Shown here: one piece after another, positions 46,822-62,967 of the stretch | How the letters are laid out: each line of letters starts with the position of its first letter | Numbering within the stretch: the stretch's first letter is position 1 | Assembly (NCBI GenBank): GCA_963716395.1 | Contig: OY970309.1 | Span: 800,001-864,000, forward strand | Direction: 5' to 3' | Length of the DNA stretch: 64,000 nt | Origin: an uncultured Fibrobacteria bacterium | GTDB lineage: Bacteria > Fibrobacterota > Fibrobacteria > UBA11236 | Notes under the pieces: model-generated | The model's input: the letters and a program-made list of their open reading frames with translations, nothing else | What the model was told of the DNA's origin: nothing | Database searches by the model: none | Program-made: the position numbers and the translations under genes

Positions 46822-47131
46822 GCGTATCGTTCTGGTTACCGGATCGTAGCAGGTACGATTCGCCCCGGTTTCGCCGGAGGCCGGCTGCGGCTTGAGCGTG
46901 AACCCGCCATCCGGCGGATGGAAACCGAAACAGACGAATACAGCAATATTCAGGCCCATTTCCGAAAGCTCTACCAGCCCCGGCAAACCCCGTTGACAAG
47001 ATGTGAATAGTTATTGGAGTTAACCAATTTTATGGATTTTTAAAACCAAAATCGCCAACACATTTGAATATTTATCGAAAATCACATTTTTGTTTCAAAT
47101 CTATTTTTTCCGCGACTTGGCAAAAATCCGC

Positions 47132-47160
47132 TTGACCATATTCACAATACGGTTTTAATT
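47132..47160 (+). promoter_or_regulatory. Candidate sigma70 promoter in the AT-rich leader of the teneurin-like gene
   Basis: TTGACC-N16-TTTAAT; a second TTGACA lies at 46993. Confidence 0.35.
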
Positions 47161-47266
47161 TCCGTCTAATCTCGGAAACGAGATCGAAATTTATTCGTGG
47201 CGGACATCACACTCGCGCGTGAGAGCCCGTCAATTTGGTTTACACAATAAACGATCGGGTTCGAGC

Positions 47267-50200
47267 ATGCGCCTTTTACCCGACCTTCGCGGGGGCTTTA
47301 ACGGCAGAAGCATAATTCCGGGAGTCGTTCTGATTACCGCGTTGATGGCGCGGGCCGGGCTCCCCGGCTGCCTCGACGGCTACGCCCTATATTCCAAGGC
47401 TCAAACCGTAATGGGTGATCGCGACAGCCTTTACTCCGGCACAATCGGCTCCAACGGCACCGTGACTCTCGGCCAGGATGCCAAGCTCATGGGTGATGTG
47501 ACGTCGCACGGCAATATCCTCTTGATGGATCGATCCACGGTCTACGGCCATGTGACTTCCGGCGGCTCGGTGACCTTACAGTCCGGCGCCCAAATCACCG
47601 GCAACACGCAACAAAACGCGTCGGTCCCGATTTGCAACTTGCCCCAGGATACTTTTTCCATCGGGTCTCAGGACATCACGATATACGCCGGTGTCACTAC
47701 GGATCTTCCGCCGGGGAATTATAAAGACGTGCATGTTTACGGAAATGGACGGTTGAAACTGCATTCCGGCACCTATGCCTTGCAATCTTTGACCACCGAT
47801 GCCGACGGCCAATTCGAGTTCGATCCCTCGGAAGGCGCTATCGAGGTGTATACCAAAGTCAATATGGCTTTCGGTGATCGCACGCAATTCAATTTCACCG
47901 GCACCGCCTCTCCCGACAAAATCGAGTTCTTCAGCCGGCAACCCAGCGCCTTGACGGTGGGGACCGACATGCAATTCCAGGGCACTTTGGTAGCGCCTTG
48001 GGCGCAGGTGCACGTTTTTTCCCGAACGACTTTTTCCGGAGCGGTGTACGCCGATTCCCTGAATTTCGAGCCCGACGTGCGCGTGCATGATGTTCCCTAT
48101 GCTTCGCTACCCGTCGTCGCGATTACCAGCCCCTCCAATGGCTTTTTGACCAAGCAGAGCACCATTCCCGTGGCCTGGACCATCAACGGCGTGAGCCAAA
48201 CCTCGCAAACCACGGAGAATCTCACCGTAGAAGGAAACAACGAGGTCATTCGCTGTTCAGATGGCGTTTGCGATTCGATCACCGTGGTTCGCGATCAAAC
48301 GCCGCCCGTCGTCAAAATCACCAGCCCGGCCAACGGATTTTACACCAATCAAACATCGGTTCCGGTGGCATGGACGGTGGATGGGGTGAATCAAACCACG
48401 CAAACGACCGAAACTCTGGTGGAAGGGGCGAACGCCATCACCCGAAGCGCGACTGATTCGGCCGGGAATACCGGGACGGCTGAAATTACTGTGACTCTCG
48501 ACACGCAACCTCCGGTGGTTCACATTACTTCTCCGGTCGATGGCGCCACCCTGGAAGACGGCAACCCGATTCAGGTCGAGTATACGGTGGATGGGCAGCC
48601 GCAAGCACCCACTCCTTTCACCTTGGTGGAAGGGGAAAATCAAATTGTGGTGACGAATACCGATGCAGCGGGAAATGTCGGCGCCGACACCATTCATGTG
48701 ACTTATATCACGAATTCCCCGACCTGGCCGACCGGAACACAGATAACCGCCACGGATATCCAGGCGTCCAGCATAACCTTGCATTGGCCGGCCCCCCCAT
48801 CCGGCCATGGAATCCTGCATTATTTGGTATACCAGGGCGACGTATTGCTCGCCACCTTGCCCGGCAACCAAACCGATTATGCGGCGACCGGTCTTCTCAT
48901 CAACACCCATTACGCCTTTACCGTCGCCGCCGTGGATACGTTGAACAACATGAGTTCCGGCGGGCCGCAAGGTTCGTTCACGACCGCCAACCAATTGCCG
49001 CCCGATCCGGCGACCATTGCCCCCTCCTTGCCGGCTGAACAGACCACCAGCATGATTTCCGAAGTCGCCTTTCTTTTCCAGGGTCCGAATGCCATTCAAA
49101 CCGGTGTGGCCGACAGCGCCATCAATGCCGTTCACCTCGCGGTTTTGCGCGGGGTAGTGCAGGACAAGCAAGGAAACCCCATTCCCGGCGTTACGGTTTC
49201 GCTGTTGGGGCATTCCGAATTCGGCAGCACGGTGACCCGGACCGACGGCGAATATGATTTGGCCCTCAACGGCGGAGGCCAAGTCACGGTGTCTTTTGCG
49301 GCCCAAAATTATTTGACCGTGGAGCGCAGCCTGCATCCGCGTTGGCAGGAATTCGATGCGGTGGATACCGTGGTCATGGTTTCTATCGACACTGCGGTCA
49401 GCCAAATCTCCCTGGCCCCGCTTTTACCCATGCAAGTCGCGCAGGGCAGCGAAGTCTCCGATTCCAGCGGCGTCCGTCAGGCCACCTTGCTGTTCCCGAC
49501 CAACACCCAAGCCACCATGACGTTGCCCGGCGGTGGCATGCAAACCCTTAGTTCCATGCACGTACGCGCCACCGAATTTACCGTGGGGCCCAACGGTCAA
49601 AAAGCCATGCCGGGAAATTTGCCTCCCAACAGCGCCTATACCTATGCCGTGGAATTTACCGTAGACGAGGCACAGGCTGCGAGCGCCACCCAGGTGCAAT
49701 TCAGCAATCCGGTTTGGAATTACGTGCAGAACTTTTTGAATATTCCCGTGGGGTACGATGTGCCTTCGGCTTACTTCGATCCGCACAAGGGGCAATGGAT
49801 TCCCACCGCAGACGGGCGGGTTATCCGCATCGCCGGCATCACCAACGGCGAAGCCGACGTGGTGGTGGATACCGACGGAACCATTGCCGCGGCGCAAAGA
49901 CTCGCCGATTTCGGAATCACCGACGAGGAAAGAACCAAACTCGCCACGCTTTATTCGCCCGGGCAAACTCTGTGGCGCGTGCCCGTTCAGCATTTCACCT
50001 CCTACGATTACAATTACCCGCCCGGGTTGCCGCCCGACGCCGCCAATCCCAATGCCGGTGATCCCGATCACGATCACTCGGGGTCTTGCGGCGACGGCGG
50101 CGGGCAGGGTGATGACGTCGTGAGCGGGTCCGACATCGATTGCCAGACCCAATCCTTAGGCGAAGACGTTGCGGTACCGGGCTTTCCCGGTCTTCACTAC

Positions 50201-53200
50201 CGCAGCGATCGCGTGCCGGCCCCGCGCTGGAACACCCTGCAAATTCATGTCAGTGATGCGTCGCTTCCGGCCAGCGTCGAATTCATCAACTTGCATGTCT
50301 TCGTGGCCGGCAGAACGTTTACCTATACCTTTCCGCCCCAGCCCAATATCGTTTTTCCCTTTACTTGGGACGGCATGGACGCTTATGGGAGGCATCTCTC
50401 CGGTCGGCAACCCTACTCGTATACCCTAGATTACGCATACCCTCTTGCCTATCAAACTCCGGTCTATTCCGGCTCGCCGTCCTGCGGTCAAAGCGGCAAT
50501 CTCGTAACCCCGTGCTTCAGTTTCGGGTTGAACGGCCTACCCAGTATTACGCCGATTCAAGCCAGGTCGATTTATTTCATGGGCGACAGTTATCAAGGCT
50601 ATTTGGGCGCGCCCGAAATCGAAGACGTGGGCCGGGGTTGGACTTTGGATTCCCATCACAGTTACGATCCGACTTCGGGCATTTTGCATCTCGGCAGCGG
50701 CCAGGATCGCTCGGTGCAAACCCTGCTCGGCGCGATTTACACTGTGGCCGGCGTCAAAGGCACCAATGGTTATAGCGGGGATGGGGGGCCGGCGCTGAAC
50801 GCCGAACTTTCCAATATCAACGATATGGACATCGGCCCCGACGGCTCCATTTACCTGGCCGAAAGAGGCTCCGACCGAATTCGTAAAATCGATCCGAACG
50901 GCAATATTTCCACCGTCGCCCAAGGACACGAATGGTATACGGTGAAAGCCGCGCCGGACGGCTCTTTGTATATGGGCGACGGAGGCAGCGGCGTAGAAGT
51001 TTGGAAGCTCTCCCCGCAAGGCCAATTATCGGTATTTGCCGGGGGCGGTTCGCCCGACTCCGGATACGGCGACGGGGGTCCCGCCACCCAGGCCAGCCTT
51101 TCCTATCCGCATAACGTCGACATCGGTCCGGATGGCAGCGTATACATCGCGGATTTATACCATAATTTGGTGCGACGCGTGACTCCGGACGGCATTATCC
51201 ATACCGTGGCCGGCGGGGGCAGCGGTTACGCCGACGGGCTCCCCGCCACTTCTGTCAATATCAGCGTAGACTGGGTTTCGGTGGCGGCCGACGGCAGCAT
51301 TTACATCGCCGACGCCGTCGGGGGTGCCATTCGCAAGGTCAATCCCGCTGGGATCATCTCCACCGTGGCCGGAAACGGCACATCCGGCACCGACGGCGAC
51401 GGAGGCCCCGCCTTGCAGGCGCAAATCGTCACCTCGCGCGTCAAGGTTTTCAATACCAAGGACGGCGGAACCCGCATTTATTTCTTTGACGAACTTAATC
51501 GCACCGTTCGTTTCATCGATGAAAACGGCATCGTCAATCGGCTGGCCGGCGGAGGAAGCGATGCCACCGACGACGGCATTCCGGTCTTGGCGGCCAATGT
51601 CAGCGAACCCCGAGGCATTGCCGTGGATCCCGACGGCAATGTTTATCTCGGCTTATTCGGCGGCCAAGGTTTGGTGCGAAAAATCATCGGGCAATTTCCC
51701 GCCTTTACCGATCAAAACCTTTCCATTCCCTCGTCCGACGGCAGTGAGGTTTATCTCTTCAGCCCCGAAGGCCGCCATTTGAAAACCTATAACGCCTATA
51801 CCGGCCAGGAATTATTGAATTTCAGTTATGACGACTTCGGTGATTTGACCCAAATCACCGACCCGTACGGCAATGCCACAAGCATCGAGAGAGATGCCAA
51901 TGGCGCGCCCCTGGCCCTTCACAACGCCTATGGGCAAAGCTTGCGACTCAATACCGACGCCGACGGCAACCTGACCCAGATTGCCTTGCCGAACAACGAC
52001 ACCCATGCGTTTACCTACACCGACGGCAATCTCATGGCCACCTACACAACGCCCAATGGCCAAGTGCATACTTTCACCTATGACGACGAGGGGCGCTTAA
52101 CCAAAGATCAGGATCCGGCCGGCGGGTTTACGACGGTGGCAAAACAGACCATGCCGGATCAAAGCTGGGTATCGAAATTGACCTCGGCCTTGGGGCGCAT
52201 CCATTCCTATGAAACCGATTTCACCCCGGATTTGAGCAAGGTCAAGGTGAACACCGATCCCGCGGGATTGGTCACCACCACCGAAACCGCAGCGGCCGGC
52301 GTTGTCATCACCGACAATCCCGACAGCACGGAAACACGCGTCGTTCTCGGGCCCAACCCGCAACTCGCTTTTCAAGGCATGGTACCCACGGTCACCCTGA
52401 CCGATTTGCCCAGCGGATTGACGCAACGAGTTTATGAAAACCAGAGTGCGACCTTGGCCGACCCGAATAATTTCTTAAGCCTTACAAGTTTCGCCGATAC
52501 CAACACCATCAACGGCCGCGCCTTCTTGACGCGCTATGATAATTCCGACCGCGAATGGCTGGCCACTTCGCCCGAAGGCCGGAGCACGGCTTCTATCGTG
52601 GATCAGTTCGGCAAGGTGGTGGAGCGCGACGTGCCCGAAGTGGACAAGATGAATTACTCCTATGATGACCGTGGCCGCCTGACCTCGATGACGCAAGGCT
52701 CGGGTGGCGACGCCCGCGTCACCGCCTTCGCCTATGACAACGCCGGCTACCTGGCTGCGATTCAAGACGCCGAGAACAGGACCTTCGCCTTCACCTATGA
52801 TGGCGCAGGACGGGTCACCCAGGAAACCATGCCTGACGGCCGCCAGGTGAATTACACCTATGACGGCGACGGCAACGTGGCCTCGATCACACCGCCGGGA
52901 AAACCCGAGCATGATTTCACCTATACCCCCATTGACCTCGAAGCAACCTATTCGCCGCCACCGCTCGGCGCCGGGCTTTGGACCACGCAAAACGGTTATA
53001 ACCTCGACCAGCAATTGCTCGACGTGAATCGGCCCGACAATCGCAACATTCATTACAACTACGACACGGCCGGAAGGGTTTCGTCCATCAACACGCCAAG
53101 CGGAGACTATACCTTCGGGTATAATTCGACGACCGGGCATTTGCAAACATTGTCTTCACCCTATTCTGAAACCCTCGGCTATAACTATGACGGATTTTTG

Positions 53201-54766
53201 CCGACTTCGGTGGCTTGGTCGGGAACCGTGAATGGAAGCGTGTCCGGGGGCTACGACGCGAATTTTTGGATGACCTCGCAAACAGTGAATGGCGCGAATG
53301 CCGTTGATTTCTCCTATGACAATGACGGCTTGCTTACCCAAGCGGGGGATCTCGCCCTATCGCGCGATGCACAGAATGGCAGAGAAACAGGAAGCTCCGT
53401 CGGCGCGGTCAGCGATCAGATTGCGTATAATGAATTCGGTGAGTTGAGCGCTTATGAAGCCGACGCCAACGGGAACCCCGTTTATCAATGTGCTTATGGC
53501 CGCGATAAATTGGGACGCATCACCACCGACACCGAAACAGTTCAGGGCGTCACGCACGTTTTCGAATACACATACGACTTGGCAGGCCGGTTGCAGCAGG
53601 TGAAAGAAGATGGCGCTGTGACGGCCACCTATTCGTATGATTCGAACGGCAATCGCCTGACTAAAGTCGATGGTTCGGGGACTACGAATGGAACCTATGA
53701 TGATCAGGACAGGCTGACCCAATATGGCAACGCGACTTATGTCTATAACAACAACGGGGATTTGCAAACCAAAACCGAAACCGGCCAGACGACCACTTAT
53801 AATTACGATGTGTTCGGAAACTTGACCGAGGTACAGTTACCGGGTGGAACCGATATTCAATACGTGATAGACGGACAGAACCGGCGAGTGGGCAAAAAGG
53901 TGAATGGCGTTTTGGTGCAGGAATTTTTATATCAGAACCAATTGAATCCGGTGGCCGAGTTGGATGGGTCGGGGAATGTGGTGGCTAAATTTGTTTACGG
54001 CAGCAAAGGGAATGTGCCGGATTTGATGATCAAGGGTGGAGTGACGTATCGGATTATTTCGGATCATCTTGGCAGCCCGAAACTTGTCATTAATTCCGCT
54101 ACGGGAGCCGTGGTGGAGCAGTTGGATTACGATGAGTTTGGGAATGTGATTGGGGACAGCAACCCCGGATTTCAACCGTTTGGGTTTGCGGGTGGGTTGT
54201 ATGACGAGGATACGAAGTTGGTGCGGTTTGGGGCAAGGGATTATGCCAGTGATATTGGCAGGTGGATTACCAAAGATCCCGCTGGACTCAATTTTGGAAT
54301 GAATCTTTATGCTTATGTTAAGAACAACCCAATGAATCGGATAGATCCTTTAGGCCTGTACGAATGTACTTATTACACTAGTACACATACGATGGTGTGC
54401 ATTTCTGATGACGGAAACAATAATATTTCGAGTAGGAATTGGACTTCAGGGAACAATGGTTCAAATTGTATTACTGGAGACTGTCAGGATAATCCAAATC
54501 ATAGCGATGAATCTTATGCAGGACCTGCACCACAAGGTCATTATACTTTAGGCCCGCCAACAGCGCCTGGTGGCGGAAGGAGGAGGATGACTCCTGACGC
54601 CGGTACAGATATGAAGGGGCGGAGTGGTATTGAGACGCATGGATGCACAAACCCGGCAACTTGTTCGGAAGGATGTTTAGCAGCAAAATCAAATAATACT
54701 AGGGATAATTTTAACAATGCGATGTCTCATGAAGAGGGTCACAATACCGTCACAGTTGTACCTTAA
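47267..54766 (+). CDS. Teneurin-like YD/Rhs polymorphic toxin: signal peptide, beta-helix, 3x Ig, FN3, TTR-like, FN-plug, NHL, YD shell, Rhs core, Tlde1-like tip
   Basis: Teneurin-type motifs AVLRGVVQD..TRTDGEYDLALNGGG, FTWDGMDAYG, GWTLDSHHSYDPTSGILHLGSG; NHL repeats (GDGGPA, GPDGSIY); YD repeats; core ...PMNRIDPLGL; tip GPAPQGHY..GRSGIETHG..SEGC. Confidence 0.9.
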   Translation: MRLLPDLRGGFNGRSIIPGVVLITALMARAGLPGCLDGYALYSKAQTVMGDRDSLYSGTIGSNGTVTLGQDAKLMGDVTSHGNILLMDRSTVYGHVTSGGSVTLQSGAQITGNTQQNASVPICNLPQDTFSIGSQDITIYAGVTTDLPPGNYKDVHVYGNGRLKLHSGTYALQSLTTDADGQFEFDPSEGAIEVYTKVNMAFGDRTQFNFTGTASPDKIEFFSRQPSALTVGTDMQFQGTLVAPWAQVHVFSRTTFSGAVYADSLNFEPDVRVHDVPYASLPVVAITSPSNGFLTKQSTIPVAWTINGVSQTSQTTENLTVEGNNEVIRCSDGVCDSITVVRDQTPPVVKITSPANGFYTNQTSVPVAWTVDGVNQTTQTTETLVEGANAITRSATDSAGNTGTAEITVTLDTQPPVVHITSPVDGATLEDGNPIQVEYTVDGQPQAPTPFTLVEGENQIVVTNTDAAGNVGADTIHVTYITNSPTWPTGTQITATDIQASSITLHWPAPPSGHGILHYLVYQGDVLLATLPGNQTDYAATGLLINTHYAFTVAAVDTLNNMSSGGPQGSFTTANQLPPDPATIAPSLPAEQTTSMISEVAFLFQGPNAIQTGVADSAINAVHLAVLRGVVQDKQGNPIPGVTVSLLGHSEFGSTVTRTDGEYDLALNGGGQVTVSFAAQNYLTVERSLHPRWQEFDAVDTVVMVSIDTAVSQISLAPLLPMQVAQGSEVSDSSGVRQATLLFPTNTQATMTLPGGGMQTLSSMHVRATEFTVGPNGQKAMPGNLPPNSAYTYAVEFTVDEAQAASATQVQFSNPVWNYVQNFLNIPVGYDVPSAYFDPHKGQWIPTADGRVIRIAGITNGEADVVVDTDGTIAAAQRLADFGITDEERTKLATLYSPGQTLWRVPVQHFTSYDYNYPPGLPPDAANPNAGDPDHDHSGSCGDGGGQGDDVVSGSDIDCQTQSLGEDVAVPGFPGLHYRSDRVPAPRWNTLQIHVSDASLPASVEFINLHVFVAGRTFTYTFPPQPNIVFPFTWDGMDAYGRHLSGRQPYSYTLDYAYPLAYQTPVYSGSPSCGQSGNLVTPCFSFGLNGLPSITPIQARSIYFMGDSYQGYLGAPEIEDVGRGWTLDSHHSYDPTSGILHLGSGQDRSVQTLLGAIYTVAGVKGTNGYSGDGGPALNAELSNINDMDIGPDGSIYLAERGSDRIRKIDPNGNISTVAQGHEWYTVKAAPDGSLYMGDGGSGVEVWKLSPQGQLSVFAGGGSPDSGYGDGGPATQASLSYPHNVDIGPDGSVYIADLYHNLVRRVTPDGIIHTVAGGGSGYADGLPATSVNISVDWVSVAADGSIYIADAVGGAIRKVNPAGIISTVAGNGTSGTDGDGGPALQAQIVTSRVKVFNTKDGGTRIYFFDELNRTVRFIDENGIVNRLAGGGSDATDDGIPVLAANVSEPRGIAVDPDGNVYLGLFGGQGLVRKIIGQFPAFTDQNLSIPSSDGSEVYLFSPEGRHLKTYNAYTGQELLNFSYDDFGDLTQITDPYGNATSIERDANGAPLALHNAYGQSLRLNTDADGNLTQIALPNNDTHAFTYTDGNLMATYTTPNGQVHTFTYDDEGRLTKDQDPAGGFTTVAKQTMPDQSWVSKLTSALGRIHSYETDFTPDLSKVKVNTDPAGLVTTTETAAAGVVITDNPDSTETRVVLGPNPQLAFQGMVPTVTLTDLPSGLTQRVYENQSATLADPNNFLSLTSFADTNTINGRAFLTRYDNSDREWLATSPEGRSTASIVDQFGKVVERDVPEVDKMNYSYDDRGRLTSMTQGSGGDARVTAFAYDNAGYLAAIQDAENRTFAFTYDGAGRVTQETMPDGRQVNYTYDGDGNVASITPPGKPEHDFTYTPIDLEATYSPPPLGAGLWTTQNGYNLDQQLLDVNRPDNRNIHYNYDTAGRVSSINTPSGDYTFGYNSTTGHLQTLSSPYSETLGYNYDGFLPTSVAWSGTVNGSVSGGYDANFWMTSQTVNGANAVDFSYDNDGLLTQAGDLALSRDAQNGRETGSSVGAVSDQIAYNEFGELSAYEADANGNPVYQCAYGRDKLGRITTDTETVQGVTHVFEYTYDLAGRLQQVKEDGAVTATYSYDSNGNRLTKVDGSGTTNGTYDDQDRLTQYGNATYVYNNNGDLQTKTETGQTTTYNYDVFGNLTEVQLPGGTDIQYVIDGQNRRVGKKVNGVLVQEFLYQNQLNPVAELDGSGNVVAKFVYGSKGNVPDLMIKGGVTYRIISDHLGSPKLVINSATGAVVEQLDYDEFGNVIGDSNPGFQPFGFAGGLYDEDTKLVRFGARDYASDIGRWITKDPAGLNFGMNLYAYVKNNPMNRIDPLGLYECTYYTSTHTMVCISDDGNNNISSRNWTSGNNGSNCITGDCQDNPNHSDESYAGPAPQGHYTLGPPTAPGGGRRRMTPDAGTDMKGRSGIETHGCTNPATCSEGCLAAKSNNTRDNFNNAMSHEEGHNTVTVVP
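53741..53973 (+). repeat. Near-identical Rhs-core repeat (copies at 56409-56641 and 59278-59510)
   Basis: Compared by eye. Cassettes 1 and 3 match further, to 56914/59783. Confidence 0.9.
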
Positions 54767-54781
54767 AGGAATGCGTATTAA

Positions 54782-55354
54782 TTGATCATGAAATCCAAAA
54801 CACTTTATATAGCTCTCGGGTGGGGTTCAATACTAGCCTGCTCAGCTGGTGCCAATAAGGAAAATGATACTTCAGGTATAAAAATTTGCGAAAGATCAGA
54901 TTGCCTTACCCCGCCCACTATTCTTAGGGAAATAAATATTATGGGACCAAAGCGCGAAGTTGAGCGACTATGGGAAAGTGACTCGTTGTGGCTGATAATA
55001 TTAAAGGCTATTTCAAATGGAAGTGCGGAATGGCTAGATGTAGCAGACGCTTTGAGGCCGGGATCTGATGCTGGTTCTTCCGAGGAGTTATCGTTCGCAA
55101 TTGGAGACGCCTTGGAGTATAATGCGGAAGACATTTTAAAACGCTATGGGATGAATAAAAATGTTTGCGGAGCCCCTGATATCGACGACCCGAAATACAA
55201 CACATATGCGAAAGCGGTTCGAGCAATAAATATCAGAATTCAAAAAATACAAGCCGTAACTGATATTAAGTTAAATGAGTCGAAAGATAGCTGTTTAGGC
55301 TCTTTGAATGAATCGCTTCCGGGACTTCAGCGTTTCTTCGGGGTTAAGAAATAA
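54782..55354 (+). CDS. Putative cognate immunity lipoprotein
   Basis: Immediately follows the toxin; AT-rich; lipobox-like ILAC after a hydrophobic stretch (alternative ATG 54788). Confidence 0.7.
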   Translation: MIMKSKTLYIALGWGSILACSAGANKENDTSGIKICERSDCLTPPTILREINIMGPKREVERLWESDSLWLIILKAISNGSAEWLDVADALRPGSDAGSSEELSFAIGDALEYNAEDILKRYGMNKNVCGAPDIDDPKYNTYAKAVRAINIRIQKIQAVTDIKLNESKDSCLGSLNESLPGLQRFFGVKK

Positions 55355-55481
55355 CTGAGGTATCCAGCTGGCCAACAGGTGAATTCACGCGCCGCAACTT
55401 CATTTATCTTCCCTGCGCTTCCGTGAGTTGTTCCCGGCCTAATTGTCGTTATAGCTTGTGTCATAGCTCGTAGATGTCTCG

Positions 55482-57356
55482 ATGACGCAAGGCACGGGTA
55501 GTGACGCCCGCGTCACCTTGTTCACCTATGACGGCGACGGCAACGTGGCCTCGATCACACCGCCGGGAAAACCCGAGCATGATTTCACCTATACCCCCAT
55601 TGACCTCGAAGCAACCTATTCGCCGCCACCGCTCGGCACCGGGCTTTGGGCCACGCAAAATGGCTACAATCTCGATCGCCAATTACTCAATGTGAACCGG
55701 CCCGATAGCCGTGACATTCATTACAACTATGACGACGCGGGCCGGGTGGCCTCGATCACCACCCCCGGCGGCGATTTCACGTTCGGCTATAATTCCATTA
55801 CGGGCCACTTGCAAACCTTGGCCTCGCCTTACGGCGAAAACCTGGCTTACAGTTATGACGGCTTTCTGCCCACGGCCGTTTCCTGGTCGGGCGCCGTCAA
55901 CGGGAGCATGGCAGTGGGATATGACGCAAATTTCTGGGTCACCACGCAAAGCGTGAACGGATCAAACCCGGTGACCTTTAGGTATGACAACGACGGCCTG
56001 CTCACTCAGGCCGGCAGTCTCAACCTGACGCGCGATGTGCATAACGGCCGATTGACCGGAAGTGCCATCGGCGTGGTCAGCGATCAACTGGCTTACAACG
56101 AATTCGGCGAAATGAGTGATTACGAGGCCGATGCCAGCGGGAACCCCGTTTACCAGTACGCTTTTGGTCGCGATAAATTGGGACGTATCACCACCGACAC
56201 CGAAACGGTTCAGGGCGTGACGCATGTAAATACTTACACCTATGATTTAGCGGGAAGGTTGACGCAAGTCAAGCGCGATGGATCGGATTCAACAAGTTAT
56301 TCCTACGACGCCAATGGGAACAGGCTGGCCAAGGTCGATGCTTCCGGAACCACAAACGGAACCTATGATGATCAGGATAGGCTGACCCAATATGGCAACG
56401 CGACTTATGTCTATAACAACAACGGGGATTTGCAAACCAAAACCGAAACCGGCCAGACGACCACTTATAATTACGATGTGTTCGGAAACTTGACCGAGGT
56501 ACAGTTACCGGGTGGAACCGATATTCAATACGTGATAGACGGACAGAACCGGCGAGTGGGCAAAAAGGTGAATGGCGTTTTGGTGCAGAAATTTTTATAT
56601 CAGAACCAATTGAATCCGGTGGCCGAGTTGGATGGGTCGGGCAATGTTGTGGCCCGATTCGTGTATGGATCTAGGTCCAATGTACCCGATCTCATGATCA
56701 AGGGTGGGGTTACGTACCGGATTATTTCGGATCATCTAGGAAGTCCGAGGTTTGTGATTAATACCGCAACAGGAGCCGTAGTACAGCAGATAGATTACGA
56801 CGAATTCGGAAACGTCACCCTCGATAGCAATCCCGGATTTCAGCCGTTTGGTTTCGCAGGTGGGTTGTATGACGAGGATACGAAGTTGGTGCGGTTTGGG
56901 GCAAGGGATTATGCGGCGGAAAGTGGGATGTGGAGCACAAAGGATCCCGTAAAGTTCGCTGGAAAAAGCCCGAACCTTTACACCTATGTTGTCAATGACC
57001 CTATAAATCGCATTGATCCAACCGGCTTGGTTGGCGCGGGATGTAAAGACAATAAGAAATGCATGTCTGATTGCTTAGACAATCAGCGCGCGGATGTGGC
57101 GTTGGCTGGTTTGGCACTCAGTTTGCCGGGCATCTCCATACCCAAGCTTGGTAGGGCTGCTGCCATAAGCGAGGGAATGGGCGGTAGCCCTTGGACTACC
57201 CCCTTAAGCGTCGCCCAGTTCTTTGTACCTGCAATCGGCCCCATGGCTCGTAATCTTGGTCGTGCTTTGAATCCTTATGCGGACTTGGCCGCCGCCTTTT
57301 TTGCAAGCTATCTCGCCACCTCGCTTGCTATCTGTGCGATTCAGTGCTCGGACTGA
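55482..57356 (+). pseudogene. Orphan Rhs cassette 1 (truncated YD shell and core, hydrophobic Cys-flanked tip)
   Basis: Colinear with main gene 52684-54358; DPTGL at 57015; tip 57030-57356. Confidence 0.85.
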
Positions 57357-57357
57357 A

Positions 57358-57753
57358 ATGTATTTGGCAGCAGTACTGATAGGGATTGTGGCGGTGGTGT
57401 TCGCCTTCAAAGCCGCAACGAGTCGCCCCAAAAATCGTGACGGACATCTGACGTGCGAGGGGATTTTAACCAGGAATGATTTGGATCTTGAGGAAATATT
57501 TTCCAAATCTTTTCCGGGTCGAGATAAAGATCGCCTATTGCACTTATGGACCGCAATCTCCGAGAAGATGGTTATCCCACCCAAAAAACTTCGGGCCGAT
57601 GACCGGGTTGCCGATTTGTGTCCCGGTTCAAAGTGGAGCGCGGTGAACGTAAGAATGGAGGACTTGACCGACTTCGTGATCAAGGAATCCGGTGGACGAG
57701 AAGTTCCGAAGGATATGAAGACGATCAGCGAGGTAGTGAACTTCCTGTTCTGA
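57358..57753 (+). CDS. Putative immunity protein 1 (N-terminal TM, ACP-like C-terminus)
   Basis: ATG 1 nt after the toxin stop; [19 protein letters not shown]; ends ..[22 protein letters not shown]. Confidence 0.65.
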
Positions 57754-57782
57754 TTGTTGGGTTATCTTCCCTGGTTCGCCAT

Positions 57783-58637
57783 GAGTTATACCAGAATCAA
57801 CTGAATCCGGTGGCCGAACTCGATGGTGCGGGGAATGTTGTGGCGAGGTTTGTTTATGGCAGCAAGGGGAATGTGCCGGATTTGATGATCAAGGGCGGAT
57901 TGACGTATCGGATTATATCGGATCATTTAGGCAGCCCGAGGTTGGTAGTGAATTCCTCCGACGGCACTGTTGTGCAACGAATGTCATTCGATGAATTCGG
58001 AAATATTCTGGAAGATTCGAACCCTGGGTTCCAGCCCTTTGGATTTGCGGGTGGGTTGTATGATCAGGATACGAAACTGGTGCGGTTTGGGGCGAGGGAT
58101 TATTCTTCAGTAGATGGCCGGTGGACGAGCAAAGATCCAATTCGATTCAGAGGCGGGACAAACATTTACGTTTATGTCGAAAACGATCCGATTAATTTGA
58201 CTGATCCTAATGGTCTAGGTGGCACCGTTCATTACCCATGTTATACAAAGAAAGGGGGATCAAAAGCATGGAGAAATAATAATCCCGGAAATATTAGGGC
58301 CGGTGCAAAGGCAATTAAGCTTGGAGCGGTTGGGCAAAATGGCGGTATGGCGGTCTTCCCCACAATTGAAGCTGGAATAGAAGCGCAAAAGGCCGTATTA
58401 GCTGAAACATATGGAAACATGTCGGTTACCGATATGGTTCAGGATTACGCTCCACCTGTTGAGAATAATACTCAACAATATCTTGACAACTTGGCTTCTT
58501 TCGGTATTGATACGGCTGGAAATGTTGGTGACCAGATTGATGCACTTCAACAAGCTATGGCTCAGGAGGAGGGGTGGAAAACCGGCGATTCAATTCCAGA
58601 GCCTTCTAACGGTAACGATTGTGGGTGCGGACAATGA
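57783..58637 (+). pseudogene. Orphan Rhs cassette 2 with lysozyme-like (RNNNPGNI...YAP..ENNT..Y) tip
   Basis: Core from LYQNQLNP to DPNGL (58203); no proper start codon; tip 58218-58637. Confidence 0.85.
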
Positions 58638-59062
58638 AATATATATTCGCAATACTTTTATTTTACATCAATGTGTTATGTACAGAATCATATAGCGTAA
58701 AGCAAAAGATTTGTCTCGAAGGCAAAAACGAAATATTTGTTATTGTCGATTCTTCAGGTGAAAAACCAATTAATGTGAAAGTTCATGGTCTTAAAATTAG
58801 GCATCCAATTCAAGCTATTGATTCTGCATTGGGGGATGAAACGATCGGAGATTCACTTCAATACATACCTAAAGACCAAGCAAGTTGGAATTGGCTATTA
58901 AATTTAAAAAATCAAAATAAAAAAATAAAAATTTGTGGTAACTTAGAAGTCCAAATTACTGCGCATCACTACACTCCTGTACTGATTGTGGTAGATTCGA
59001 TTTTTCTTTTAAAGCCAACTTTTAAAAAAATCTGGCCGACGAAAATAAACTCAAGCCATTGA
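58634..59062 (+). CDS. Putative immunity protein 2 (exported)
   Basis: ATGA overlap with the toxin; signal-like [16 protein letters not shown]; very AT-rich. Confidence 0.65.
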
Positions 59063-59116
59063 CGGCATGAATAAACAACTTGTAGCAAGTTTCGAGGAAT
59101 CAATTTCGAGGTGTTT

Positions 59117-59278
59117 CCTTATGAATCCCCTCATTTCGAATAAGCGCTTGATTTTAAAAGGGTTGCAGGTGTTGCGATATTTGTAACATCTGGTTTTATG
59201 CGGCCTTGCAGGCCGCGCCAAATAAGGATTGGAAGGCGAGGAAACATCTAGGTTACCAAAATGAGGGGATTCATAAGG
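59117..59278. mobile_element. 162-bp MITE / internally deleted IS with perfect 20-bp terminal inverted repeats
   Basis: CCTTATGAATCCCCTCATTT (59117-59136) and AAATGAGGGGATTCATAAGG (59259-59278). Internal IHF-consensus TAAGCGCTTGATT and a GCGGCC/GGCCGC hairpin. Confidence 0.8.
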
Positions 59279-60457
59279 TCTATAACAACAACGGGGATTT
59301 GCAAACCAAAACCGAAACCGGCCAGACGACCACTTATAATTACGATGTGTTCGGAAACTTGACCGAGGTACAGTTACCGGGTGGAACCGATATTCAATAC
59401 GTGATAGACGGACAGAACCGGCGAGTGGGCAAAAAGGTGAATGGCGTTTTGGTGCAGGAATTTTTATATCAGAACCAATTGAATCCGGTGGCCGAGTTGG
59501 ATGGGTCGGGCAATGTTGTGGCCCGATTCGTGTATGGATCCAGGTCCAATGTACCCGATCTCATGATCAAGGGTGGGGTTACGTACCGGATTATTTCGGA
59601 TCATCTAGGAAGTCCGAGGTTTGTGATTAATACCGCAACAGGAGCCGTAGTACAGCAGATAGATTACGACGAATTCGGAAACGTCACCCTCGATAGCAAT
59701 CCCGGATTTCAGCCGTTTGGTTTCGCAGGTGGGTTGTATGACGAGGATACGAAGTTGGTGCGGTTTGGGGCAAGGGATTATGCCAGTGATATTGGCAGGT
59801 GGATTACTAGAGATCCGATTGGGTTCGCTGGAGGGTCGAATCTTTATCGATACTGTATGAATGAACCAGTAAATGTACTTGACCCAACTGGCTTACTTGT
59901 GGTATTTGCCGGGCCGAACTTTAATGCGGCTGCGGGACCATCCGGAGTTGCAGGCGGATCGGGCCCGTACTGGGATTTTTCAAATGGTTCTGGTGGAACG
60001 TATGACTACTCAGGGAAATCTACTGGTGCTAATGTAAGCGCGGGATGGGAGTTTGGGATAGGTAGAGGTTCCGCAAATGATTTTGCAGGAGACTTTAACA
60101 ATATATCCTTCTCTGGATTTGGAATTGAAGTTTCTGCTCATTTTGACAGTGATGGTAATTTTTGGGGATTCAGTGCGGGACCGAGTGAGGGTTTTGGGGT
60201 ATCCGGTTCTCAAACGAATACCGAAACTTCCTCACCTAACAGGGTGTTGAAAAAGGATTTTTGGCACCCTGAAAATGATCTCCCAGTATCGAATTCATTC
60301 AGATTTCAAAGATCGTGGGTAACATACATGGTACATAAATCGACTTTTTCAACACCCTGCTAATGCAAATGGAAAACAATCCGAAAGTACTAGTAGTAAT
60401 GGTGGAAATAATGGTGGTGATAATACTAATGGAAACAAAGGTACCAATTGTAACTAA
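59278..60457 (+). pseudogene. Orphan Rhs cassette 3 with Gly/Ser/Phe beta-rich tip, frameshifted by an ACAT duplication
   Basis: Core to DPTGL (59881). Removing one ACAT at 60322-60329 extends the frame to TAA 60457. Confidence 0.8.
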
Positions 60458-60468
60458 AAAGGTCACTC

Positions 60469-60714
60469 ATGCGCGTAAGAATAAAATATTGGTTTGGAAT
60501 AATGGGTTTTACCGTAGTGTCCCTATTGACCGGGCTAGTTGCTTTGCGTTTTCAGCCGCTACTATTTTTGGTATTAGTTTGGATTGGGTGTTGGATTCTT
60601 TTTGTATTGGAGTTGAAATGCCCTTCATGCAAAAAGCCTGCAATTCCTAGGTGGCGAATATGGTTTCATGCAATTCCACCGAAAAAGTGCAGTAGTTGTG
60701 GATTTAAGTTCTAG
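60469..60714 (+). CDS. Putative immunity protein 3 (2 TM helices plus CxxC/CxxC zinc ribbon)
   Basis: SD AAGG; CPSC and CSSC motifs. Confidence 0.65.
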   Translation: MRVRIKYWFGIMGFTVVSLLTGLVALRFQPLLFLVLVWIGCWILFVLELKCPSCKKPAIPRWRIWFHAIPPKKCSSCGFKF

Positions 60715-60715
60715 C

Positions 60716-61201
60716 CGGTATTCGAGTAGAAATCCAATTCAGTTTTGGGGAGGGTTGAATTTATACGAATACGCGTGTGGGAACCCAGTCATCTATATCG
60801 ATCCTTTTGGCCTTTGCTGGATTTACAGACAATCGACGGAAAAATTGACGCTTGTCGACAACGAAGGCTCCGCATACGTCGGGACTGGTTATGCCGGCTA
60901 CGGGATGGGTCTTAATAACCCGTCGATGCAGAATATTCCGGATACCAGCCCTTTGTCACACGGGCAATATACGATCGGCCCCCAGCACACAAATACCACT
61001 CAAGCAGGTGTAACCTTTCCAGGCTCTATGCGACTGACTCCGAATCCGAATAATCAAATGTATGAACGTGATGGTTTCTTGATTCACGGACCACATGCTA
61101 ACGACAAACACAATTCTTCCGAAGGCTTTCCCGTTTTCAACAAGAATGTTCGAATTTGAATCTGTAATAGTGGAGACAACTGCTTCAAGGTCGTGCCATG
61201 A
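60716..61201 (+). pseudogene. Orphan Rhs cassette 4: degenerate Tlde1-like tip
   Basis: NLYEY..NPVIYIDPFGL; RDGFLIHG..SEGF (Cys lost); internal TGA at 61157; the frame continues to VVP-stop at 61201. Confidence 0.8.
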
Positions 61202-61710
61202 AAGTCACTTGCATTCTCGCGTGCTTGGGAATCGCTTTGGCAACTATGAATTCTGCACAGGCAGATCAACACTCAACTAAAGTAGCTCCAAAGGGAGAAA
61301 CGTTTGTCGAAACAACTGCTGGAAAGTCGACAGTGCAAGTGAAGCTTAAGACACATGAAGTGCAAATCGGGAGACAAAGTGATCCTCGTCCGACTGTAAT
61401 CGAATCGAACTGCACTTACAGCAGGTACCCGTGCAGCATTGTCGATCAGGTCGACATCACGGTGGATGGTAACCCGCTCTTTGTTCAGCGATCAATATTC
61501 GCTGACCTAGCCGACTTAAATAAAGCGGAGATAAGAATAGGGGGAAAGGGGCGGGGCCTCACGCTTTATGGCGGTGATGCTTCGGAGAGCTATATCGTCA
61601 AGATCGCCTTTGATTCCACACAGATAAAGAGCCGAACCGTTTCCAGCGGTATTTCACCGGGTCACGTTTTACAAGAAACGATTTACCATCAAGATGTTGT
61701 TGGAGAGTAA
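61198..61710 (+). CDS. Putative immunity protein 4 (exported)
   Basis: ATGA overlap with the restored toxin stop; signal peptide ending AQA. Confidence 0.7.
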   Translation: MKVTCILACLGIALATMNSAQADQHSTKVAPKGETFVETTAGKSTVQVKLKTHEVQIGRQSDPRPTVIESNCTYSRYPCSIVDQVDITVDGNPLFVQRSIFADLADLNKAEIRIGGKGRGLTLYGGDASESYIVKIAFDSTQIKSRTVSSGISPGHVLQETIYHQDVVGE

Positions 61711-61720
61711 TTTCTGGCAA

Positions 61721-61917
61721 TATGGCAGCAAGGGTAATGTTCCGGATTTGATGATAAAAGGCGGGGTTATTTGCCAGATTATTTCAGACGCTGAGACAGT
61801 AATCCCGAGCGCGTTTTGATCGGGTGGCAGGAAGGTCGTTTTGAAGTGGTGGCCAGCCCGAGCATCGTCTGGGAATATGCGGCAGTAGGCAGGTGGATTT
61901 CCAAGCATCCCAACTGA
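61721..61917 (+). pseudogene. Scar of Rhs-core and PIN-toxin fragments
   Basis: [19 protein letters not shown] (61721-61789), NPERVLIGWQEGRFEVVASPSIVWEY, GRWISKHP. Confidence 0.55.
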
Positions 61918-61942
61918 TGTAGAAATGCCAATACGAAAAAGG

Positions 61943-62302
61943 CTAGATGAACCGGTCCGCCGAGACTTTGAAAAGGTGGCCGAGATCCTTGGCCACGCCC
62001 TTGCTGATGGCACGCTGGTTGTTCTCGAAGTCGGAGACGCGGGCGGCCTTCACACCGCCGAGCTTCTCGCCGAGTTCAGCCTGCGACCATCCATGCGCTT
62101 CGCGCAGGTGCCTAACCCAAAGCCCCGCCTTCATGGTCGCCGAAACCTGCTTGTGCAGTTCAGTCTCGAAATATTCCACCGCCACATCTTCCTCCTTGAG
62201 GAGATAAGGGGCATAACGCCGCCGCACGTCCTGCAGGACACGGCGAGGGGTGCCGGAACGGAAGTGAAGATCAATAGAGCGCGTCTTTGTGGCTACCGAC
62301 AT
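61943..62302 (-). CDS. Xre/HTH antitoxin (HigA-like)
   Basis: LREAHGWSQAELGEKLG..VSDFENNQRAISK; downstream of the toxin. Confidence 0.85.
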   Translation of the reverse strand: MSVATKTRSIDLHFRSGTPRRVLQDVRRRYAPYLLKEEDVAVEYFETELHKQVSATMKAGLWVRHLREAHGWSQAELGEKLGGVKAARVSDFENNQRAISKGVAKDLGHLFKVSADRFI

Positions 62303-62552
62303 AATACACCTCGATGGCGATGATCTCTTTCTGATGCTCCCAGCAGGCCACGTAGCCGTGGCTTCGCGCCAGGTGGCAGTGATACTTGTTCTTCCGGCCT
62401 TTCAGCTTGCCGAAGTTCGTCCAGCCGTTCGGGCCTGTAGGGCCGCTGGTTCTAAGCACTCCCGCCAGAGCCTCGAACCGCTGTTGAACCTCCAGGGGCA
62501 TCTTGGAAAGGCTTTTAAGGGCCGAGTTCCTGATAGTGACCCGGTACTCCAC
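62271..62552 (-). CDS. RelE/HigB-like toxin
   Basis: YRVTI..ALKSLSKMP..FGKLKG..YHCHL..IEVYYVGSH; toxin-first order; GTG start. Confidence 0.8.
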   Translation of the reverse strand: MEYRVTIRNSALKSLSKMPLEVQQRFEALAGVLRTSGPTGPNGWTNFGKLKGRKNKYHCHLARSHGYVACWEHQKEIIAIEVYYVGSHKDALY

Positions 62553-62559
62553 CAAAAGC

Positions 62560-62588
62560 AGTATACCCCATATCGGGGTATATGTCAA
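62560..62588 (-). promoter_or_regulatory. Sigma70 promoter with embedded operator palindrome (TA autoregulation)
   Basis: TTGACA-N17-TATACT; TATACCCC-N5-GGGGTATA at 62562-62582. Confidence 0.85.
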
Positions 62589-62967
62589 ACGAAGCCTCGA
62601 AAAGCGAAGGATAGCGCAGACGGCCCGGGATTAGCCCACCGGAGGCGGACGTAGCCGAAGCCGGGCGGTTGACAGCATGCTGTTACCTATAGAGGCCACC
62701 TTTAAAATATATCGAATATGTCGATCTCTAAATCAGAGTAACATGCTTTGACGGGTTTTGGATCAAGGAAGCTTTGAGATGGAAGAAGTAGAGGCCGACG
62801 ACTTGTTCACAGGAGCGCATCTCCTTAGCCGGGTCGGGCGGCGGCTGCGTACCGAGCTTTCCGCCCGCGATCACGTGACCTCGGTTGCGACCTGAATCAA
62901 ACCCGCATCAAGATCTCGCTATTTGATCGAATTTCTCGCACGGGCCGCCAAGCCACTCCTCTCCCCA

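What the first reader, a model, noticed from the sequence alone, without database searches (positions are those of the whole stretch)
47267..61710. Teneurin-like protein used as a polymorphic toxin with a downstream array of swappable toxin/immunity cassettes
Seen: the ~2500-aa protein has the teneurin superfold order (TTR-like, FN-plug, NHL, YD shell, DPxGL core) and motifs that I recall as resembling animal teneurins. It has a predicted signal peptide and adhesin-like N-terminal domains, with no PAAR/VgrG/Tc genes in the window. It is followed by an immunity gene and four startless core+tip+immunity cassettes. Known: orphan cassettes reload classical Rhs/CDI toxins by recombination, and bacterial teneurin-like proteins exist. 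Inference: a T6SS-independent, Sec-exported teneurin toxin with its own reload array. This is the best candidate for an undescribed system in this window.
Basis: partly seen in the sequence, partly recalled or inferred. Interest (0 to 1): 0.9.

Follow-up and report, generated by a model that had tools for sequence, protein, structure and literature searches.

The report
Bacterial teneurin-like toxin with spare tips
This is a bacterial teneurin-like toxin gene, a class first described in print in February 2026, followed by its protection gene and a row of spare toxin and protection modules that have swapped DNA with the main gene.

Summary
ORF 47219/47267-54766 (+) encodes a roughly 2500-aa protein with the domain order TTR, TIP-like region, FN-plug, NHL, YD-shell, Rhs core and a 135-aa Tlde1-type tip.

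It is not an undescribed system. The protein matches two solved bacterial "Teneurin-like protein" structures (9pt5, 9ifo) at E=0. Its FN-plug/NHL model finds 9ifo first and animal teneurins next. PMC13018210 (Nat Commun, Feb 2026) already describes these proteins as Sec-targeted polymorphic toxins with a downstream immunity gene and an unknown delivery route.

What I did not find in that paper is the orphan array. Exact 115-233 bp identity blocks between the main gene and the orphans, against a 55-75% background, show DNA exchange among the copies. Similar truncated copies follow TLP-type genes in 6 of 83 other loci.

T6SS independence is plausible but untested: the genome has T6SS genes elsewhere. 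Toxicity, immunity and present-day tip swapping are also untested. Verdict: a new member of a known kind. Interest 0.3.

The parts
46822..47266 (+). AT-rich upstream region between nuoN and the TLP gene, likely holding the promoter
   Evidence: GC 46.1% against 63.8% for the nuo operon. No consensus promoter was found here.
47267..47371 (+). Signal-peptide-like N-terminus (aa 17-51, numbered from the GTG at 47219): charged start, hydrophobic stretch, then Cys51
   Evidence: Read from the translation. A paralogous N-terminal module elsewhere in the genome has the same hydrophobic stretch followed by Cys-Leu-Asp-Gly-Tyr. No signal-peptide predictor was available.
47372..49126 (+). Variable adhesin-like N-terminal modules: beta-helix-like (DUF7305, sub-threshold), Ig-like repeats, FN3
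   Evidence: Pfam fn3 aa 508-574 at 33.2 bits; DUF7305 and Big_13 below their cutoffs.
49127..49378 (+). Teneurin TTR-like domain (aa 637-720)
   Evidence: PF25020, 80.7 bits.
49379..50098 (+). TIP-like region between TTR and FN-plug (aa ~721-960; boundaries approximate)
   Evidence: Continuous alignment with 9ifo/9pt5 residues 440-913, E 5e-107. The TIP domain is named in PMC13018210.
50099..50635 (+). FN-plug (boundaries approximate), with predicted autoproteolytic site Gly970|Ser971 (Ser codon at 50129-50131)
   Evidence: Gly-Ser aligns with the solved TLP's G723|S724. Across 33 TLPs the columns read Gly in 26 of 33, and Ser in 23 plus Cys in 9 of 33. Fold match.
50636..51898 (+). NHL beta-propeller (aa ~1140-1560; boundaries approximate)
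   Evidence: PF25021, 70.9 bits. AF2 model pLDDT 82.9. Foldseek hits to TLP, teneurins and NHL proteins.
51899..54127 (+). YD/Rhs-repeat shell
   Evidence: PF25023, 163.4 bits, and 7 RHS_repeat stretches. PDB matches.
54128..54358 (+). Rhs-associated core (aa 2304-2380) with R2340, D2353 and D2376. Predicted cleavage after Leu2380 of Asp-Pro-Leu-Gly-Leu
   Evidence: TIGR03696, 76.8 bits. These residues align with R2103, D2116, D2140 and L2144 of the solved TLP (residue roles from PMC13018210).
54359..54766 (+). Main toxic tip, 135 aa: Tlde1-type (L,D-transpeptidase-like, peptidoglycan-directed), with its Ser-x-Gly-Cys motif intact
   Evidence: PF10908, E 3.8e-10. Motif comparison. GC 43.9%.
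54782..55354 (+). Candidate immunity protein for the main tip, 190 aa, with a lipoprotein-like N-terminus (Ile-Leu-Ala-Cys). No known family
   Evidence: Assigned by position only.
55478..57029 (+). Orphan 1: 5'-truncated shell plus core, matching main aa ~1822-2380 with one repeat unit missing
   Evidence: 81% nt identity over 1429 bp, with exact runs of 115 bp and 180+52 bp. Core HMM E 4.9e-42.
57030..57356 (+). Orphan 1 tip, 108 aa, hydrophobic, no family match
57358..57753 (+). Candidate immunity 1, with an N-terminal transmembrane segment. The ATG directly follows the tip's stop codon
57771..58217 (+). Orphan 2: last ~150 aa of shell plus core
   Evidence: 78.7% nt identity over 356 bp. 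tblastn 71%.
58218..58637 (+). Orphan 2 tip, 139 aa: a cell-wall-hydrolase-like domain shared with phage lysins
   Evidence: PHROG 873 'endolysin' E 1.7e-14; PHROG 2276 tape measure E 2.1e-11; PHROG 7182 tail injection transglycosylase E 3.7e-5. Nothing in Pfam.
58619..59062 (+). Candidate immunity 2 (DUF4431), with a hydrophobic N-terminus. The ATG at 58634 overlaps the tip's stop codon
   Evidence: PF14485, 26.4 bits, cutoff 24..
59278..59895 (+). Orphan 3: last ~206 aa of shell plus core
   Evidence: 89.4% nt identity to the main gene, with exact runs of 233 bp and 80 bp. Exact runs of 180, 82 and 242 bp (near 100% identity) with orphan 1 over main coordinates 53741-54246.
59896..60363 (+). 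Orphan 3 tip, 155 aa, glycine-rich, unknown family
   Evidence: no significant match.
60469..60714 (+). Candidate immunity 3, 81 aa: hydrophobic N-terminal two-thirds (read as two membrane spans) and a Cys-x-x-Cys pair. The overlapping 95-aa ORF 60363-60650 is an alternative
60716..60814 (+). Orphan 4: only the last 33 codons of the core. No exact run of 20 bp or more with the main gene
60815..61159 (+). Orphan 4 tip, 114 aa: Tlde1-like, but Phe replaces the motif Cys and the C-terminus is shorter, so it is probably decayed
   Evidence: PF10908 E 5.7e-8. PHROG 24118 E 1e-16. Alignments.
61198..61710 (+). Candidate immunity 4, 170 aa, with a signal-peptide-like N-terminus
61721..61789 (+). Terminal scar: 23 codons matching main aa 2260-2282, with no core or tip
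   Evidence: blastn 78% over 68 bp. tblastn 87% over 23 aa.

Best explanation
This is a member of the bacterial teneurin-like protein (TLP) family of polymorphic toxins, on a low-GC island next to the nuo operon.

Shown by sequence and fold:
- The protein has a signal-like N-terminus and variable adhesin-like modules, then the TTR, TIP, FN-plug, NHL and YD-shell scaffold.
- An Rhs aspartyl-protease core should cut after Leu2380, and a second autoproteolytic Gly970|Ser971 site lies in the plug.
- The 135-aa tip is a Tlde1-type peptidoglycan-directed enzyme.
- Behind the main gene and its candidate immunity gene lie four truncated shell/core + alternative tip + small-ORF cassettes and a scar.
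- The cassettes have exchanged DNA with the main gene.

Inferred:
- The protein is exported by Sec, probably lipid-anchored and displayed on the surface.
- The tip is enclosed in the shell and released into a neighbouring cell's envelope by an unknown route.
- The downstream lipoprotein protects the producer.
- RecA-type recombination between the shared core sequences can put an orphan tip on the full-length gene, as in classical Rhs C-terminal displacement. The distal cassettes (orphan 4 and the scar) are decaying.
For: Family identity:
- E=0 (1120 and 1116 bits) to solved TLPs 9pt5 and 9ifo, against 1e-97 or weaker for animal teneurins and 2e-30 or weaker for T6SS Rhs proteins.
- aa 680-1160 align continuously with TLP residues 440-913.
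- The AF2 model of aa 960-1600 (pLDDT 82.9) finds 9ifo first (E 3.2e-55, TMq 0.62), then 12 animal teneurin chains (E 2e-41 to 8e-36).
- The cleavage residues are conserved.

Tips and candidate immunity proteins:
- The tip sizes of 108-155 aa match the 86 complete tips of other TLP-type loci (median 130.5 aa) and the paper's ~15 kDa.
- All five candidate immunity proteins have a signal-like or transmembrane N-terminus. That fits tips that act on the envelope.

Recombination:
- Exact runs of 115, 180 and 52 bp (main vs orphan 1) and 233 and 80 bp (main vs orphan 3) sit in a 55-75% identity background.
- Identity ends about 27 codons before the cleavage site.
- In six other loci the truncated copies are 68.5-90.6% nt-identical to their own main gene and follow the same order of gene, small ORF, truncated copy, small ORF.
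- One such orphan tip is Ntox33. A Tlde1 tip related to orphan 4's ends a full-length TLP in L031.

Accessory island:
- GC is 32-57% against 59.8% for the genome.
- The gene is absent from 11 of 11 other genomes of the genus with this query.
Against: - No experiment or read evidence shows toxicity, immunity, export or present-day tip swapping. The one public run holding the region is low-depth contigs with no joints.
- The Pfam FN-plug hit alone is below its cutoff.
- The residues before Cys51 (Leu-Pro-Gly) are not a textbook lipobox, and no predictor was run.
- Orphan 4 has only 99 bp of poor homology and lacks the motif Cys, so it is not a usable spare.
- Orphans are not a general TLP feature. 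Only 2 of 25 confirmed TLP loci with 3 kb or more downstream have core-bearing ones (after dropping two split-hit artefacts), and 0 of 4 loci from the same phylum do.
- The genome has a T6SS, so that route is not excluded.
Confidence: 0.82

Rival explanations
1. The downstream cassettes are only a fossil record of past tip replacements by incoming DNA. Today they serve at most as a store of immunity genes against neighbours' toxins, not as spare tips for the main gene.
For: Orphan 4 keeps only 33 core codons, has no exact run of 20 bp or more with the main gene and lacks the motif Cys. The last element is a 23-codon scar. Each cassette has its own GC content, from 32% to 55%, which fits separate acquisitions. 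No joint reads were seen.
Against: Orphans 1-3 keep intact frames through core and tip. Exact blocks of 115-233 bp shared with the main gene, including synonymous sites, show recent exchange and give ample substrate for homologous recombination.
Confidence: 0.3
2. The protein is delivered by the genome's type VI secretion system, like classical Rhs effectors, and not by Sec and surface display.
For: The genome encodes TssC, VgrG and two PAAR-domain proteins. Tlde1-type domains are known as T6SS cargo (PMC9638812, passages).
Against: The protein has no PAAR or VgrG-binding module and starts with a signal-like hydrophobic segment. The T6SS genes lie 0.32 to 2.5 Mb away. Full-length relatives also begin with signal-like segments, for example L012, L020, L031 and L087 (read by eye). 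The published family analysis predicts Sec signals.
Confidence: 0.05
3. The protein works mainly as a surface adhesin or cell-to-cell recognition molecule, and the tip is secondary.
For: It has long adhesin-like N-terminal modules. The authors of PMC13018210 leave a communication role open (Discussion).
Against: The cleavage residues and enzyme motif in the main tip are intact. A dedicated downstream ORF and a set of alternative tip/ORF pairs make sense for a toxin, not for an adhesin alone.
Confidence: 0.08

Closest known systems
Bacterial teneurin-like proteins (TLPs): PMC13018210, Nat Commun 2026; structures 9ifo and 9pt5 (Bacillus inaquosorum TLP)
   Same: Same scaffold order (TTR, TIP, FN-plug, NHL, YD-shell), both autoproteolytic sites, a short variable tip, a downstream small gene, a Sec-type N-terminus and a rare, accessory distribution.
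   Different: Only about 38% identical over the FN-plug/NHL part. The N-terminal modules and the tip (Tlde1-type) differ. The locus carries an array of four truncated cassettes plus a scar. That paper's main text has no occurrence of 'orphan', 'cassette', 'recombination' or 'truncated', and its five readable supplements have none of 'orphan'. Six PDF supplements could not be read.
Classical Rhs loci with orphan rhs-CT/immunity modules (C-terminal displacement). PMC3150448: passages on teneurin only. PMC7043789: search listing and abstract start only. Jackson et al. 2009: seen only as an entry in a reference list
   Same: Same-strand 5'-truncated core copies, each with its own tip and small downstream ORF. 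They share nucleotide homology with the main gene that ends just before the Asp-Pro-x-Gly-Leu site.
   Different: The carrier is a teneurin-type scaffold with a signal sequence, not a PAAR/VgrG-linked T6SS Rhs.
Animal teneurins (e.g. 6FB3, 6CMX)
   Same: FN-plug, NHL and YD-shell superfold (E ~1e-97 by sequence; E ~1e-41 by fold).
   Different: According to PMC13018210, animal teneurins lack the Rhs cleavage motif and carry their C-terminal domains outside the shell. Here the motif is intact and the tip is small enough to be enclosed.
Tlde1/Tldi1 of Salmonella (T6SS effector/immunity pair; PMC9638812, passages read)
   Same: The main tip matches the Tlde1 domain (E 3.8e-10) and keeps a His ... 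Ser-x-Gly-Cys arrangement. The candidate immunity protein looks exported, as a periplasmic target requires.
   Different: Here the domain is the C-terminal cargo of a TLP, not a free T6SS effector. The downstream ORF has no detectable family.

Membership tests
Bacterial teneurin-like protein (TLP) family, as defined in PMC13018210 | FN-plug, NHL and YD-shell present together and in that order | tested here: met
   Pfam order. E=0 to 9pt5 and 9ifo. FN-plug alignment. Fold search top hit is 9ifo, E 3.2e-55.
Bacterial teneurin-like protein (TLP) family, as defined in PMC13018210 | TIP domain upstream of the FN-plug (in 96% of TLPs) | tested here: met
   aa 680-960 align without a break to 9ifo/9pt5 residues 440-~700. 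Exact domain limits were not available, because figures are not held.
Bacterial teneurin-like protein (TLP) family, as defined in PMC13018210 | Rhs-core autoproteolysis motif: two Asp-Pro-x-Gly motifs plus the conserved Arg | tested here: met
   R2340, D2353, D2376 and L2380 align with R2103, D2116, D2140 and L2144. These positions are invariant in 6 of 6 aligned cores. The cleavage itself was not tested.
Bacterial teneurin-like protein (TLP) family, as defined in PMC13018210 | Conserved Ser at the FN-plug cleavage site | tested here: met
   G970|S971 aligns with G723|S724. The column reads Ser in 23 and Cys in 9 of 33.
Bacterial teneurin-like protein (TLP) family, as defined in PMC13018210 | Sec signal, of the lipoprotein type in Gram-negative members | tested here: inconclusive
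   A hydrophobic stretch followed by Cys51 is visible and is shared with a paralogous module. The preceding residues are atypical for a lipobox, and no predictor was available.
Bacterial teneurin-like protein (TLP) family, as defined in PMC13018210 | Short (~15 kDa) polymorphic C-terminal toxin with a cognate immunity gene directly downstream | tested here: inconclusive
   Size (135 aa), the Tlde1 match and the downstream ORF are present. Toxicity and protection are not testable here. The complex prediction never ran because the queue stayed full.
T6SS-associated Rhs effectors | PAAR or VgrG-linked N-terminus, or a neighbouring vgrG, PAAR or chaperone gene | tested here: not met
   No PAAR domain in the protein. 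The genome's PAAR and VgrG matches lie outside the window.
Rhs-type orphan (C-terminal displacement) arrays | Same-strand 5'-truncated core copies with distinct tips and small downstream ORFs, homologous to the main gene up to the core | tested here: met
Tc (ABC) toxin complexes | Separate TcA translocator gene and a TcB/TcC pair | not tested
   No search with Tc families was run. With the whole protein as query, no other YD-shell match was found in the genome at E 1e-5 or better.

The most novel reading that the evidence does not exclude
Teneurin-like toxins diversify by the same C-terminal displacement and orphan-cassette recombination as classical Rhs toxins, which I did not find in the searched literature on this family. 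In this genome all five cassettes pair a tip with an exported or membrane-bound partner. That suggests a Sec-displayed TLP of a diderm delivers its cargo only as far as the target's envelope.
Probability: 0.3. Interest if true: 0.45.

Novelty: new member of a known kind. Interest (0 to 1): 0.3.

Why it matters
The locus adds a well-preserved example to a toxin family whose delivery route is still unknown. It shows that TLP loci can carry recombining spare tips, as Rhs loci do.

Every candidate immunity protein here looks exported or membrane-bound. Two tips are cell-wall-directed and one is a decayed copy of a cell-wall enzyme. This gives a testable hint about how far the cargo travels.

It does not change the picture of the family.

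Tried and rejected
- **Read evidence for tip swapping.** One public run (X1, a soil metagenome kept as contigs) held 0.09 of the sampled words. Laid on 46500-62500 it gave 13 short pieces, no joints, and no cover over 53976-58247. This says nothing either way.
- **Toxin-immunity complex prediction** (main tip plus the downstream ORF). The job was never accepted because the queue stayed full at every attempt, so there is no result.
- **Single-sequence AF2 of the orphan 2 tip.** pLDDT 46.4, unusable. No fold search was made on it.
- **ESM Atlas for tips 2 and 3.** Only unnamed clusters came back. For tip 2 the named leads (glucosaminidase, phage tail lysozyme) scored 0.77, so they are leads only. 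The PHROG hits are the usable evidence for tip 2.
- **The search for related loci in genome contigs with a single protein.** It returned 1 weak hit (L002, 40% over 83 aa) and was not useful.
- **Island borders by synteny.** Three genomes of the genus have nuoN, but none of the window's right-flank ORFs lies within the 4-14 kb fetched beside it. The borders rest on GC content and the scar only.
- **Promoter and terminator scan of 46800-62700.** Counts were no higher than in shuffles: 14 against 16.7 and 21 against 20.1. Nothing can be said about separate expression of the orphans.
- **Two apparent orphans (L060, L081).** They were dropped as artefacts, because the main gene's hit was split in two. 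L057 holds two tandem full-length TLPs, not an orphan.
Full report
**1. What is in the sequence**

A single frame is open from 47219 (GTG) to 54766. The first ATG is at 47267.

| Feature | Residues | Evidence |
|---|---|---|
| fn3 | 508-574 | Pfam, |
| Teneurin TTR-like | 637-720 | 80.7 bits, |
| Teneurin FN-plug | 1007-1062 | 23.0 bits, below the 27.8 cutoff, |
| Teneurin NHL | 1190-1333 | 70.9 bits, |
| Teneurin YD-shell | 1811-2376 | 163.4 bits, |
| RHS repeats | seven stretches | |
| Rhs-associated core | 2304-2380 | NCBIfam, |
| Tlde1 domain | 2420-2510 | 33.9 bits, cutoff 30.1, |

Upstream lies a nuo operon. The region 46822-61789 has a GC content of 32-57%. The nuo operon has 63.8% and the genome 59.8%.

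**2. Is it teneurin-like?**

Yes, by sequence and by fold.

- The whole protein matches two solved chains named "Teneurin-like protein" (9pt5_A, 9ifo_A) at E=0. Animal teneurins follow at 1e-97 to 8e-58, and T6SS Rhs proteins at 2e-30 and weaker.
- Residues 680-1160 align without a break to residues 440-913 of those chains (E 5e-107). Their FN-plug part aligns to animal teneurin FN-plugs at about 1e-13. This rescues the sub-threshold Pfam hit.
- I folded residues 960-1600 with a 33-sequence alignment (pLDDT 82.9). Foldseek against the PDB ranks 9ifo first (E 3.2e-55, TMq 0.62). Twelve animal teneurin chains come next (E 2e-41 to 8e-36, TMq 0.43-0.47), then NHL-only proteins.

**3. It is already described**

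PMC13018210 (Nat Commun, 14 Feb 2026) covers this family. I read the whole Results and Discussion. The paper reports the following:
- TLPs occur in 139 genomes of six phyla.
- The scaffold is invariant. N-terminal adhesin modules vary, and a TIP domain is present in 96%.
- Gram-negative members have predicted Sec/SPII lipoprotein signals.
- There are two autoproteolytic sites.
- The C-terminal domains of about 15 kDa are polymorphic, enclosed in the shell and toxic in E. coli.
- A gene directly downstream acts as immunity.
- The delivery route is unknown.

All the sequence features listed there are present here:
- Gly970|Ser971 aligns with the published G723|S724 site. Across 33 TLPs that column is Ser in 23 and Cys in 9.
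- R2340, D2353 and D2376 align with R2103, D2116 and D2140, and Leu2380 with L2144.
- The tip is 135 aa.

The signal is visible as a charged start, a hydrophobic stretch and Cys51. It recurs in a 52.6%-identical paralogous N-terminal module at genome position 2.062 Mb. I could not run a predictor, and the residues before the Cys are not a textbook lipobox.

**4. The array**

| Element | Shell/core copy | Extent against the main protein | Tip | ORF that follows |
|---|---|---|---|---|
| Orphan 1 | 55478-57029 | aa ~1822-2380, one repeat unit missing; 81% nt over 1429 bp | 108 aa, hydrophobic | starts at 57358, N-terminal membrane segment |
| Orphan 2 | 57771-58217 | last ~150 aa | 139 aa; PHROG endolysin 1.7e-14, tape-measure lysin part 2.1e-11, tail transglycosylase 3.7e-5 | DUF4431 |
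| Orphan 3 | 59278-59895 | last ~206 aa; 89% nt | 155 aa, glycine-rich, no family | 81 aa, hydrophobic N-terminal two-thirds (read as two membrane spans) |
| Orphan 4 | 60716-60814 | last 33 codons only | 114 aa, Tlde1-like | 170 aa, signal-like start |
| Scar | 61721-61789 | aa 2260-2282 | none | none |

The cassettes are 5'-truncated, not startless, because each frame holds a possible start codon.

Orphan 4's tip has Phe where the main tip and a related full-length TLP tip (L031) have the Cys of the Ser-x-Gly-Cys motif. It also ends about 14-20 residues early (motif from passages of PMC9638812). I read it as decayed.

**5. Evidence for exchange between copies**

Identity along the aligned copies is mosaic.
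- Main against orphan 1 has exact runs of 115 bp (from 52855) and 180+52 bp (from 53741), among stretches of 55-75% identity.
- Main against orphan 3 has exact runs of 233 bp and 80 bp.
- Orphans 1 and 3 share exact runs of 180, 82 and 242 bp (near 100% identity) over main coordinates 53741-54246.

Exact identity, synonymous sites included, inside a diverged background means recombination or conversion, not selection. Identity to the main gene ends near aa 2354, about 27 codons before the cleavage site. The exchangeable unit is therefore the end of the core, the tip and the following ORF. No recombinase gene was among the ORFs I scanned. Homologous recombination is the likely mechanism, but that is an inference.

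**6. Is the array peculiar to this genome?**

- **Same phylum.** 15 of 296 genomes, including this one, have a TLP-type match at E 1e-20 or better. None of the 11 other genomes of the genus has one. Four relatives with complete downstream sequence carry no core-bearing orphan, and one (L007) has a short fragment.
- **Metagenomes.** A scan with an alignment of shell ends kept 78 loci out of 463 relatives.
- **Counts.** I examined 83 loci together.
  - 41 of the 83 have the TLP-specific upstream part.
  - 27 of those 41 show 3 kb or more downstream by the script. That becomes 25 after dropping L060 and L081, where the main hit was split.
  - Of these 25, L030 has one truncated shell/core copy and L036 has two.
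  - L011 has a 40-aa scar and L057 has a second full-length TLP.
- **Shorter contigs.** Four more carry core-bearing truncated copies (L015, L043, L072, L075). Three more show short fragments (L017, L041, L054).
- **Relation to their own main gene.** These copies are 68.5-90.6% nt-identical to it. They sit in the same order of gene, small ORF, truncated copy, small ORF.

So orphans recur at TLP loci but are not the rule. The window has the largest array seen, although only 10 kb downstream was available elsewhere.

**7. Tips across the family**

The 86 complete tips from other loci have a median length of 130.5 aa and a range of 76-290. Of 85 scanned, 10 have a Pfam match: Ntox33 (an orphan in L036), Tlde1 (the main tip in L031), VanY, phospholipase A2 twice, DUF4329, eCIS_core, PT-HINT and Ntox16.

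**8. Secretion**

The window holds no PAAR or VgrG. The genome has TssC at 3.318 Mb, VgrG at 2.677 Mb and PAAR proteins at 0.055 and 1.181 Mb. With the whole protein as query, no second YD-shell gene was found in the genome. Sec export followed by surface display is the best reading, and it agrees with the paper. T6SS independence is not shown.

**9. What is in print about orphans on TLPs**

- The 2026 paper's main text has no occurrence of 'orphan', 'cassette', 'recombination' or 'truncated'.
- Its five readable supplements have none of 'orphan' or 'Tlde1'. Six PDF supplements could not be read and may bear on this.
- The 2019 review PMC6425310 has none of 'orphan' (passages).
- A search for teneurin + orphan + polymorphic toxin + immunity found five papers, none about TLP orphans. 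Two deal with classical Rhs/CDI orphans: PMC3150448, of which I read only the passages on teneurin, and PMC7043789, seen only as a listing and abstract start.

**10. Verdict**

This is a well-preserved member of a known, recently published family. It has one feature I did not find described for that family, recombining orphan cassettes, and that feature is itself classical for Rhs toxins. The interest is modest.

Noticed in passing
window 61943-62588 (-): A 105-aa ORF (62271-62588) overlaps and precedes an HTH_3 protein (61943-302). The HTH protein has weak antitoxin-family matches (HipB 3.1e-5, MqsA-type 4.2e-4, both below cutoff). An 11-of-12 sigma-70-like promoter sits at 62588-62560. It looks like a toxin-antitoxin pair right after the island's scar.
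   Followed up: partly
G000:C1:2061839-2063683 (outside the window): A 615-aa ORF has a first half 52.6% identical to TLP aa 31-380. It carries the same hydrophobic stretch plus Cys-Leu-Asp-Gly-Tyr start and a second copy of the beta-helix-like module. The N-terminal display module is therefore shared with another exported protein.
   Followed up: partly
L057:6491-18464: A metagenome contig holds two full-length teneurin-like genes in tandem, 74.6% nt-identical over 5.4 kb, each with its own tip.
   Followed up: no
L036:9148-12895: An unusually long orphan reaches back into the NHL region (matches main aa ~1182-2381) and ends in an Ntox33 tip. A second short orphan follows it.
   Followed up: partly
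window 60363-60650 (+): A 95-aa ORF has an ATG that overlaps the stop codon of orphan 3's tip. It overlaps the 81-aa membrane/zinc-ribbon ORF 60469-60714 in another frame. Which of the two is the real partner of tip 3 is open.
   Followed up: no
window 9755-17782 (-): Two very large neighbouring proteins (1259 and 1400 aa) combine several family-2 glycosyltransferase domains with long TPR arrays.
   Followed up: no
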